NCBI RefSeq assembly: GCF_024700885.2
Contig: NZ_CP117016.1
Direction: 5' to 3' (one strand)
DNA from: Escherichia coli
Lineage (GTDB): Bacteria > Pseudomonadota > Gammaproteobacteria > Enterobacterales > Enterobacteriaceae
Length of the DNA stretch: 64,000 nucleotides
Part shown: in pieces, positions 6,281 through 6,870 of the stretch
Layout of the letters: every line of letters starts with the position of its first letter
Position numbering within the stretch: position 1 is the first letter of the stretch
Position numbers and translations under genes: made by a program
The notes under the pieces: model-generated
What the model saw: the letters and a program-made list of their open reading frames with translations, nothing else
The model's database searches: none
What the model was told of the DNA's origin: nothing

Positions 6281-6496
6281 TTAAGCCAATTGCTGCCGCC
6301 ATTCCTTGACGTGGTCAATCAGGGCGCGGAGCTTTGGTGCAATATTGCGACGCTGTGGGAAATACAGATAGAAGCCCGGAAATTGTGGAAGAAAGTCATC
6401 AAGCAGCGATACAAGCTTACCGCTTTCAATATATGGCCTGAAAGTTTCCTGAGTGGCAATTGTTATGCCTGCGCCGGCAAGAGCCAGCCTCAACAT
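6281..6496 (-). pseudogene. Truncated LysR-family regulator fragment (C-terminal 71 codons only; yagP-like)
   Basis: Translation ...GKLVSLLDDFLPQFPGFYLYFPQRRNIAPKLRALIDHV matches the C-terminal effector-domain end of the intact LysR paralogs at 7080-7964 and 30252-31145; no N-terminal HTH present. Confidence 0.6.
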
Positions 6497-6590
6497 CAGA
6501 CGCAGATCATTCTGCTAATCCCACCGATGCTTCGGTCTGGAGTGGTAAATTAATATTGGACACAGTTTTATTTTCTCTCTTTTTCGAGGG

Positions 6591-6870
6591 CTATATGAAC
6601 AGGAAGAATACATCCCTAAGCGGTTAATGCTGGCGTAATCAATAGACCAGCATTAATCACAGATGATTACCAATCAGACAGAAATGGTTAAATCGTCGAA
6701 TTCATATTTAATACGTTTTCTTACGCCGCTGAGCAACTTGAAAGCAGGAAAAGGATGTATATTTTAAATATCAGTGAAGTGAACAGTTTATTGCCGTTAT
6801 TAATAGAGATGGAGGAATAAATAGGCGTATTCTACTATTGCAACAAAAACAACGATAATGATCAGTTTTC
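6591..6870. repeat. Ghost copy of the ykgO-3'end / terminator / ykgR module (paralogous to 25204-25345 plus 26030-26160)
   Basis: Aligned by eye: 6591-6740 resembles 25204-25345 (terminator hairpin and rpmJ2 3' end, degenerate); 6757-6870 resembles 26043-26155 (ykgR region, conserved C-terminal IVVFVAIVEYAYLFLH codons but no intact start). The rpmE2/rpmJ2 coding block is absent from this copy. Confidence 0.6.

What the first reader, a model, noticed from the sequence alone, without database searches (positions are those of the whole stretch)
6281..6870. Truncated LysR fragment next to a ghost ykgO'-ykgR' module
Only the last 71 codons of a LysR gene remain (6281-6496). They are followed by a degenerate copy of the rpmJ2 3' end with its terminator hairpin and a degenerate ykgR-like ORF, while the intact ykgM-ykgO-ykgR locus lies 19 kb away. 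This marks an old segmental duplication or rearrangement at the edge of the P4-like element.
Basis: seen in the sequence. Interest (0 to 1): 0.45.

Follow-up and report, generated by a model that had tools for sequence, protein, structure and literature searches.

The report
Pseudogene scars beside E. coli thrW
These 590 bases of E. coli hold two ordinary gene wrecks, a LysR regulator stump left by a 2-kb deletion and a remnant of an older, already broken version of the ykgO-ykgR locus, and the remnant marks the seam where two alternative versions of this chromosome stretch were joined.

Summary
Window 6281-6511(-) is the 3' end of a LysR gene, the orthologue of K-12 pseudogene yagP. Window 6592-6868 is a broken copy of the ykgO 3' end with its terminator hairpin, joined to the last 23 codons of ykgR. 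Similarity to the intact locus at 25204-26189 is far above chance (z = 46-57 against shuffles).

- The P4-like element is a bystander. It ends at a thrW-derived attR at 6138-6154, and a strain with an empty site has the same LysR stump and ghost.
- The LysR stump comes from a separate, younger 2,048-bp deletion. O157:H7 still has the intact LysR, an SDR oxidoreductase gene and a BhsA-like gene there.
- The ghost is probably not a decayed duplicate of the neighbouring locus. The same ykgO' remnant is attached to a full-length, single-copy ykgR in two non-coli Escherichia lineages and in a few E. coli. Another lineage has only thrW-ecp-ykgO-ykgM-ykgR.
- E. coli therefore most likely carries both forms spliced in tandem, with the seam at 6868/6869 in ykgR codon 10/11.

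NCBI's PGAP already annotates both pieces as partial pseudogenes. Nothing suggests a function. Interest is low.

The parts
6138..6154 (+). attR of the P4-like element: a degenerate copy of the thrW 3' end (TCCTATTATC-GCACCA). This is the right boundary of the element.
   Evidence: Local alignment to thrW of E. whittamii matches 16 of 17 nt with one G missing. Homology to the empty-site strain F374 and to K-12 starts at 6138.
6155..6280 (.). Chromosomal spacer between thrW and the LysR stop codon. It is not part of the element.
   Evidence: Collinear with F374, K-12 and O157 at 96-98% identity.
6281..6511 (-). LysR stump, orthologue of K-12 yagP: the last 76 codons plus stop.
   Evidence: Pfam LysR_substrate positions 137-207 of 209. 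The K-12 YagP C-terminus is 97% identical to O157 WP_000687183.1, and the window's 76 codons line up with that protein's residues 224-299. PGAP annotates the stretch as a partial pseudogene.
6503..6512 (.). Junction of a 2,048-bp deletion that removed the first ~223 LysR codons, the SDR oxidoreductase gene and the BhsA-like 92-aa gene.
   Evidence: The window matches O157 locus L003 at 3575-3952 and again at 6001 onward. The two matches overlap by about 9 nt, and AGTCGT lies next to both breakpoints.
6512..6591 (.). Spacer of the form-A locus downstream of the ghost terminator. It has no homologue in the intact locus.
   Evidence: Conserved in O157, F374 and C122. No other match in the window.
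6592..6743 (-). O' part of the ghost: the last ~11 codons of ykgO (rpmJ2), frameshifted, plus the terminator hairpin at about 6625-6657.
   Evidence: 74.5% identity over 153 nt to 25204-25356, E = 4e-25. z = 46 against shuffles. Fold gives an 11-bp stem with no U-tract.
6744..6760 (.). Scar of an old internal deletion of about 675 bp that removed most of ykgO, all of ykgM and the whole ykgR-ykgM intergenic region where the operon's promoter must lie.
   Evidence: In the intact locus the break falls between imperfect direct repeats TCCCTTTTTTGTAAG (26024-26038) and TCCACGTTTTAAGG (25349-25362). The ghost-type ykgO' also follows ykgR directly, with no ykgM, in the E69 and KTE114 lineages.
6752..6868 (-). 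R' part of the ghost: ykgR codons 11-33, the stop codon and 48 nt downstream. An in-frame TGA sits just upstream and there is no in-frame start codon.
   Evidence: 89.8% identity over 128 nt to 26029-26156. The translation KLIIIVVFVAIVEYAYLFLHLY hits NCBIfam NF041474 at positions 12-33 of 33, 36.1 bits against a cut-off of 40. PGAP annotates 6800-6868 as partial YkgR.
6868..6869 (.). Illegitimate seam where the form-A remnant is joined to the flank of the LysR2 cassette.
   Evidence: Homology to ykgR stops abruptly here in all ghost-bearing lineages examined. Single-copy loci continue from this point into ykgR codons 1-10.
6869..7079 (.). 211-bp flank of unknown origin between the seam and the stop codon of the intact LysR2 gene (7080-7964, minus strand).
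   Evidence: No homologue elsewhere in the window and none next to LysR2 in Kluyvera or Raoultella. It is the most variable segment, 87% identical between the window and O157 with an 18-bp indel.
25204..26189 (-). The intact form-B locus: terminator, ykgO, ykgM and ykgR.
   Evidence: ORFs. Ribosomal_L36 and NF041474 hits. K-12 annotation of the collinear DNA.

Best explanation
The region is non-functional wreckage left by three separate events in the variable stretch between thrW and ykgR.

Event 1 (old, shown). In one version of this stretch, here called form A, the gene order is thrW, yagP-LysR, SDR, BhsA-like gene, ykgO, ykgM, ykgR. A deletion of about 675 bp between short imperfect repeats removed ykgM and most of ykgO. 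It left a ykgO 3' stub and its hairpin directly downstream of an intact ykgR.

Event 2 (inferred). In the E. coli lineage, form A was joined in tandem to the alternative form B, which has the order thrW, ecp, ykgL, ykgO, ykgM, ykgR. One join was illegitimate and cut the form-A ykgR at codon 10/11, which is window 6868/6869. The other crossover lay in shared flanking DNA, as in homology-facilitated illegitimate recombination. The form-A stub became the 'ghost'. The form-B copy stayed functional. The LysR2 cassette, pao, yagU and ykgJ lie between the two.

Event 3 (younger, shown). In the window's lineage a 2,048-bp deletion at a short microhomology removed the first ~223 codons of yagP-LysR together with the SDR and BhsA-like genes. 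K-12 carries a different and larger deletion.

The P4-like element later integrated at thrW and merely abuts this region.
For: Event 3.
- O157 locus L003 has an intact 299-aa LysR, SDR and 92-aa gene exactly where the window has a gap.
- Counts in 5,426 complete E. coli genomes: 388 carry the intact 2-kb segment, 179 carry the window-type junction and 613 carry the ghost region.
- K-12 joins yagP to DNA upstream of paoD.

Form A as a single copy with a full-length ykgR.
- E69 lineage (L026).
- Escherichia sp. KTE114 lineage (L030-L033).
- E. coli-like genomes L023, 6EVA, wlxctx60 and GF4-3.

Form B alone.
- L040 has thrW, then about 440 bp, then ecpE to ecpR, ykgO, ykgM and ykgR.

Sequence relationships.
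- Ghost-type ykgO' forms one clade across E. coli and the E69 and KTE114 lineages (86-89% identity) and is 73-80% identical to real E. coli ykgO. In all of them this ykgO' directly follows ykgR with no ykgM between.
- All E. coli ykgR 3' copies (real, ghost, single-copy) cluster at 90-97% and share an E. coli-specific motif, TAACGGCAATAAACTGTTCAC.
- Ghost R' shares two derived synonymous states (ATC, ATA) with the E. coli single-copy form-A ykgR.

P4-like element.
- Its attR and the empty-site strain F374 show it is independent of the rearrangements.
Against: - The direction of event 2 (A into B, or B into A) is unresolved, and no form-B-only E. coli was found. The B2 strain E2348/69 has a further deletion here.
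- The site evidence in ykgR' rests on very few positions, and one of them (TTT/TTC) conflicts with the model.
- The trees are neighbour-joining trees on 117-160 nt with long branches.
- Species identities of the non-coli lineages were not established.
- Gene conversion between the two ykgR copies was not formally excluded.
Confidence: 0.62

Rival explanations
1. Simple in-place segmental duplication. An E. coli ancestor copied its own ykgR-ykgM-ykgO locus to a site 18.6 kb away, and the copy then decayed.
For: There are two direct-orientation copies in one genome, and the ykgR' part is 90% identical to the real copy. The ghost carries an internal deletion and frameshifts typical of decay.
Against: The ykgO' part is as far from the real copy (73-80%) as orthologues of different species are, and it groups with single-copy loci of non-coli lineages. 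Those lineages have no second copy and no pao-ecp block. The two halves coalesce with the real copy at very different depths, which one duplication cannot give without extra gene conversion.
Confidence: 0.15
2. The tandem composite is ancestral. Form-A-only genomes arose by homologous recombination between ghost ykgR' and real ykgR, deleting about 19 kb. Form-B-only genomes arose by deletion of the thrW-proximal part.
For: The 128-bp direct repeats at about 90% identity could recombine. The predicted product has exactly the gene order seen in L023, 6EVA and GF4-3.
Against: The single-copy ykgR of those genomes is ghost-like at its 5' sites (ATC, GTT, ATA) and real-like at its 3' sites (TTT, G). 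That is the opposite of the crossover product. Ghost and real ykgR share E. coli-specific changes that are absent from the E69 and KTE114 lineages. The composite was seen only in E. coli.
Confidence: 0.15
3. Integration or imprecise excision of the P4-like element truncated the LysR gene and created the rearrangement.
For: The stump lies 127 bp from the element's end.
Against: The end of the LysR gene facing the element is the intact C-terminal end, and the deletion is on the far side. Strain F374 with an unoccupied thrW has the same stump and ghost. The same deletion junction occurs in 179 genomes, at least one of which (F374) has an unoccupied thrW.
Confidence: 0.02
4. The similarity is chance resemblance of AT-rich intergenic DNA.
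For: The region is about 39% G+C.
Against: z = 46-57 against dinucleotide-preserving shuffles, and BLAST E-values of 1e-25 to 1e-38.
Confidence: 0.01

Closest known systems
E. coli K-12 yagP (b0282), an annotated LysR-family fragment next to the CP4-6 cryptic prophage
   Same: Same gene and same chromosomal position immediately after the thrW-derived att site. Window 6138-6511 aligns to K-12 297238-297611 at 96% identity.
   Different: K-12 keeps 37 more LysR codons and then jumps to DNA upstream of paoD. It has lost the SDR gene, the BhsA-like gene, the ghost and the LysR2 cassette. The window has a smaller, independent deletion. The first 23 codons of the K-12 ORF are not LysR sequence.
ykgM-ykgO (L31B/L36B paralogue operon, Zur-regulated according to the literature, from my own knowledge) with the small membrane protein gene ykgR
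   Same: The ghost is homologous to the ykgO 3' end, its terminator and the ykgR 3' end.
   Different: The ghost lacks ykgM, about 35 of the 46 ykgO codons, the whole ykgR-ykgM intergenic region where the operon's promoter must lie, and ykgR codons 1-10. It cannot encode any of the three products.
Homology-facilitated illegitimate recombination (one homologous anchor plus one illegitimate join; described for natural transformation, from my own knowledge)
   Same: It accounts for one abrupt non-homologous junction (6868/6869) next to a duplicated stretch, with collinear homologous DNA on the other side.
   Different: The mechanism is inferred from structure only. Neither the donor, the recipient nor the direction of transfer is known.
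tRNA-adjacent integration hotspots (thrW with CP4-6, and P4-like satellites carrying defence cargo)
   Same: thrW here carries a P4-like element with a retron, and other strains carry AbiE, phage or integrase remnants at the same site.
   Different: The finding itself lies outside the element, in the chromosomal flank.

Membership tests
LysR-type transcriptional regulator (Pfam PF00126 HTH_1 plus PF03466 LysR_substrate) | C-terminal substrate-binding domain | tested here: met
   The stump matches PF03466 only at positions 137-207 of 209 (39.5 bits, cut-off 28), so just the last third of the domain is present.
LysR-type transcriptional regulator (Pfam PF00126 HTH_1 plus PF03466 LysR_substrate) | N-terminal winged helix-turn-helix DNA-binding domain | tested here: not met
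   It is absent from the window. It is present in the intact 299-aa orthologue of O157 and of other lineages. The stump is therefore a pseudogene fragment and not a regulator.
Small membrane protein YkgR (NCBIfam NF041474, equivalog) | Full-length 33-residue match above the curated cut-off of 40 bits | tested here: not met
   The ghost translation matches positions 12-33 of 33 at 36.1 bits. The real YkgR scores 78.1 bits. There is an in-frame TGA upstream and no start codon.
Ribosomal protein L36 type B (ykgO/rpmJ2) | Intact 46-codon ORF matching PF00444 | tested here: not met
   Only about the last 11 codons are recognisable at DNA level, and they carry an indel. The real ykgO scores 68.5 bits on PF00444.
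Intrinsic (Rho-independent) terminator | G+C-rich hairpin followed by a U-tract | tested here: inconclusive
   The hairpin is kept with an 11-bp stem (86-nt fold, -23.9 kcal/mol, z = -2.9). The tail reads CCGCUUAGGG instead of UUUUCC, and the consensus scan does not report it.
P4-like satellite prophage integrated at a tRNA gene | attR formed by a direct repeat of the tRNA 3' end at the element boundary | tested here: met
   16 of 17 nt of the thrW 3' end at 6138-6154. The primase, psu, delta and retron cargo are annotated to the left in identical DNA. The finding lies outside this element.
Known RNA families (Rfam 15) | Match to any covariance model in 5900-7200 | tested here: not met
   No match at E <= 1.

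The most novel reading that the evidence does not exclude
The 128-bp ykgR' repeat could be more than a scar. It could act as a standing recombination substrate, so that E. coli lineages shed the whole 19-kb pao-ecp-ykgMO block in one step by ykgR' x ykgR crossover. Less likely, the junction-created 33-codon ORF at 6771-6872(-) could be expressed as a new small protein. My data do not show either. The single-copy genomes I examined do not have the crossover signature. The ORF has no ribosome-binding site, changes non-synonymously between strains, and its reading frame is also stop-free in copies that lack the junction ATG.
Probability: 0.05. Interest if true: 0.4.

Novelty: already known. Interest (0 to 1): 0.18.

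Why it matters
It matters little for biology at large. Both pieces are already flagged as partial pseudogenes by NCBI's annotation pipeline, and one is the K-12 pseudogene yagP.

There are three modest points of value:

- It corrects a tempting misreading that blames the neighbouring mobile element and assumes a single duplication.
- It shows that the thrW-to-ykgR interval exists in Escherichia in at least four forms: form A, form B, a short form, and the E. coli composite. The ghost marks the seam of the composite, which is useful for anyone studying the origin of the ecp pilus, pao and ykgMO region or typing this hypervariable locus.
- It is a worked example of two halves of one 'ghost' having different ages relative to the live copy.

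Tried and rejected
- Rfam scan of 5900-7200 found nothing.
- The promoter and terminator scan gave counts no higher than in shuffles.
- Literature searches for yagP and ykgR found nothing about this junction.
- A degenerate ykgR-peptide DNA pattern scanned across 100,044 species genomes hit only Escherichia, plus about six chance hits. The ghost's origin could therefore not be traced to another genus.
- E69 is not in the RefSeq E. coli set. Its context was recovered through an exact-protein look-up instead.
- I looked for homology of the 6869-7079 flank next to LysR2 in Kluyvera and Raoultella and found none.
- I looked for a form-B-only E. coli in the B2 strain E2348/69. It has a further deletion from thrW to yagU and is uninformative.
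- The local Pfam copy did not match YkgR, so NCBIfam was used.
- The alternative-frame ORF was considered as a gene and rejected.
- Deletion by ykgR' x ykgR crossover was considered as the origin of the single-copy E. coli loci and rejected on the site pattern.

Full report
**What is in the sequence**

The window is E. coli chromosome. A P4-like element occupies the left part. Identical DNA in strain 1190 is annotated with a primase, psu, an ogr/delta gene, a retron St85 pair and a RipA-like membrane protein. The element ends at 6138-6154 in a 16-of-17-nt copy of the thrW 3' end.

Three features follow the element:
- a 126-bp chromosomal spacer;
- the ghost at 6592-6868.

An intact LysR gene ('LysR2', 7080-7964), an alpha/beta hydrolase gene, an MFS transporter gene and paoD come next. 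The live ykgO, ykgM and ykgR genes lie at 25320-26189.

**Check of the observation**

- Window 6741-6868 aligns to 26029-26156 at 89.8% over 128 nt (E = 8e-38).
- Window 6592-6770 aligns to 25204-25382 at 71% over 180 nt (E = 7e-25).
- Dinucleotide-preserving shuffles give z = 57 and z = 46, so chance is excluded.
- The ykgR' part translates to KLIIIVVFVAIVEYAYLFLHLY, preceded by an in-frame TGA. It hits NCBIfam YkgR at positions 12-33 of 33, below the cut-off.
- Only about 11 frameshifted ykgO codons remain.
- The hairpin is kept but its U-tract is lost.
- The 646 bp between the two matched blocks (25383-26028) are absent from the ghost. They hold ykgM, most of ykgO and the ykgR-ykgM intergenic region. 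This segment normally occurs at one place per genome in E. coli (median 1, never more than 2).
- The break lies between imperfect repeats TCCCTTTTTTGTAAG and TCCACGTTTTAAGG, about 675 bp apart.
- PGAP already annotates both pieces as partial pseudogenes.

**The LysR stump**

K-12 aligns to window 6138-6511 at 96% identity and then jumps to window 10673. The stump is therefore the orthologue of K-12 yagP.

O157:H7 has an intact 299-aa gene at this position, followed by a divergent SDR oxidoreductase gene and a 92-aa BhsA-like gene. K-12 YagP residues 24-136 are 97% identical to the C-terminus of that protein.

The window matches the O157 locus at 3575-3952 and from 6001 onward. It therefore lacks 2,048 bp, with a few bases of microhomology at the joint. 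K-12 carries a different and larger deletion.

Counts among 5,426 complete E. coli genomes:

| Arrangement | Genomes |
|---|---|
| Intact 2-kb LysR-SDR-BhsA-like segment | 388 |
| Window-type deletion junction | 179 |
| Ghost region present | 613 |
| K-12-type stump only | roughly 2,700 |

**The P4-like element is a bystander**

Strain F374 has, in order, proA, thrW, the LysR stump, the ghost and LysR2, with nothing integrated at thrW. The truncated side of the LysR gene faces away from the element.

**Origin of the ghost**

A degenerate ykgR-peptide pattern scanned over one genome per species found ykgR only in Escherichia. Following the ghost's neighbouring gene into other genomes showed four forms of the thrW-to-ykgR interval:

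| Form | Gene order | Where seen |
|---|---|---|
| A | thrW, LysR, SDR, BhsA-like gene, ghost-type ykgO', full-length single-copy ykgR; no pao/ecp/ykgMO block between | E69 lineage; Escherichia sp. KTE114 lineage; L023, 6EVA, wlxctx60, GF4-3 (3 of 5,426 complete E. coli genomes, plus L023) |
| B | thrW, about 440 bp, ecpE to ecpR, ykgO, ykgM, ykgR | a further non-coli lineage (L040) |
| Short | thrW 250-390 bp from ykgR | E. whittamii; Escherichia sp. E1V33 |
| Composite | form-A part beside thrW, then the LysR2 cassette, pao, yagU and ykgJ, then form B | E. coli only |

**Sequence relationships**

Ghost-type ykgO' sequences from E. coli and from the E69 and KTE114 lineages form one clade at 86-89% identity. 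In all of them this ykgO' follows ykgR directly, with no ykgM between. They are only 73-80% identical to the live E. coli copy, which groups with the form-B lineage.

The ykgR 3' segment behaves differently. All E. coli copies, whether live, ghost or single-copy, cluster at 90-97% identity. They share the motif TAACGGCAATAAACTGTTCAC, which every other lineage lacks.

Ghost ykgR' shares two derived synonymous states (ATC, ATA) with the E. coli single-copy form-A ykgR. One site (TTT/TTC) conflicts with this grouping.

The single-copy E. coli ykgR is ghost-like at its 5' sites and live-like at its 3' sites. A ykgR' x ykgR crossover deletion would give the reverse.

**Interpretation**

The ykgO' stub and the live ykgO separated long ago. 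The two ykgR copies separated within the E. coli lineage.

This fits two alternative forms of the thrW-to-ykgR interval. Form A had lost ykgMO by the 675-bp deletion, and form B had the ecp operon and an intact ykgMO. In E. coli they became joined in tandem by one illegitimate junction at 6868/6869 and one homologous exchange in shared flanking DNA.

This step is inferred from structure and from short alignments. The direction of transfer is unknown, and gene conversion was not formally excluded. I give it about 0.6.

**Function**

No function is indicated:
- Rfam gives no match.
- There is no credible promoter or terminator.
- The ghost and its right flank are among the most variable stretches here between the window and O157 (92% and 87%, against 97-98% for the neighbouring genes).
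- The junction-created 33-codon ORF has no ribosome-binding site, varies non-synonymously between strains, and its frame is also stop-free in copies without the ATG.

**Verdict**

The features are ordinary pseudogene scars that are already annotated as such. The seam reading is a small new piece of E. coli comparative genomics.

Noticed in passing
window 3530-5894: The P4-like element carries a retron St85-family pair (effector about 3530-4498, reverse transcriptase 4485-5417) and a convergent RipA-family octameric membrane protein gene (5412-5894, minus strand). They sit in the slot between the psu and delta genes and attR, by annotation of identical DNA in strain 1190.
   Followed up: no
window 6055-6064: A run of ten G lies just inside the right end of the P4-like element, about 75 bp before attR.
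   Followed up: no
L002 (K-12) 7382-7792: The annotated 136-aa K-12 YagP ORF is chimeric. Only residues 24-136 align to the intact LysR. The first 23 codons are read from DNA upstream of paoD that K-12's own deletion brought next to the gene.
   Followed up: partly
L004 6001-6011; L007 3001-3011 (corresponds to window 6628): In strains E118 and 100117 an island ending in AbiEi/AbiEii abuts the chromosome exactly inside the ghost's terminator hairpin. It replaces everything from thrW through the yagP LysR, SDR and BhsA-like genes.
   Followed up: partly
window 7080-10460; L035-L038: The LysR2, alpha/beta hydrolase and MFS genes form a three-gene unit. Its LysR2 is 88-90% identical in protein sequence to copies in Kluyvera, Raoultella and Enterobacter, and in Kluyvera and Raoultella the same three-gene unit sits in unrelated neighbourhoods. 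In E. coli it was only seen together with the ghost.
   Followed up: partly
window 25383-26028: 347 of 5,426 complete E. coli genomes have no match to the ykgM-ykgO segment. The L31B/L36B ribosomal paralogue pair is therefore not universal in the species.
   Followed up: no
L018 102-706; L017 9859-10369: In E. whittamii and Escherichia sp. E1V33, thrW or its att remnant lies only 250-390 bp from ykgR. Neither ykgMO nor the ykgO' stub is present. This is a fourth form of the interval.
   Followed up: partly
L006 1236-4719: E. coli C122 has IS3/IS629 fragments and a group II intron (ltrA) inserted into the BhsA-like gene next to the ghost.
   Followed up: no
window 6771-6872 (-): A 33-codon ORF in the +1 frame of ykgR' takes its ATG from the seam and is open in all eight ghosts examined. 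It has no Shine-Dalgarno sequence, its changes between strains are non-synonymous, and the same frame is also stop-free in single-copy ykgR. It is judged not to be a gene.
   Followed up: yes
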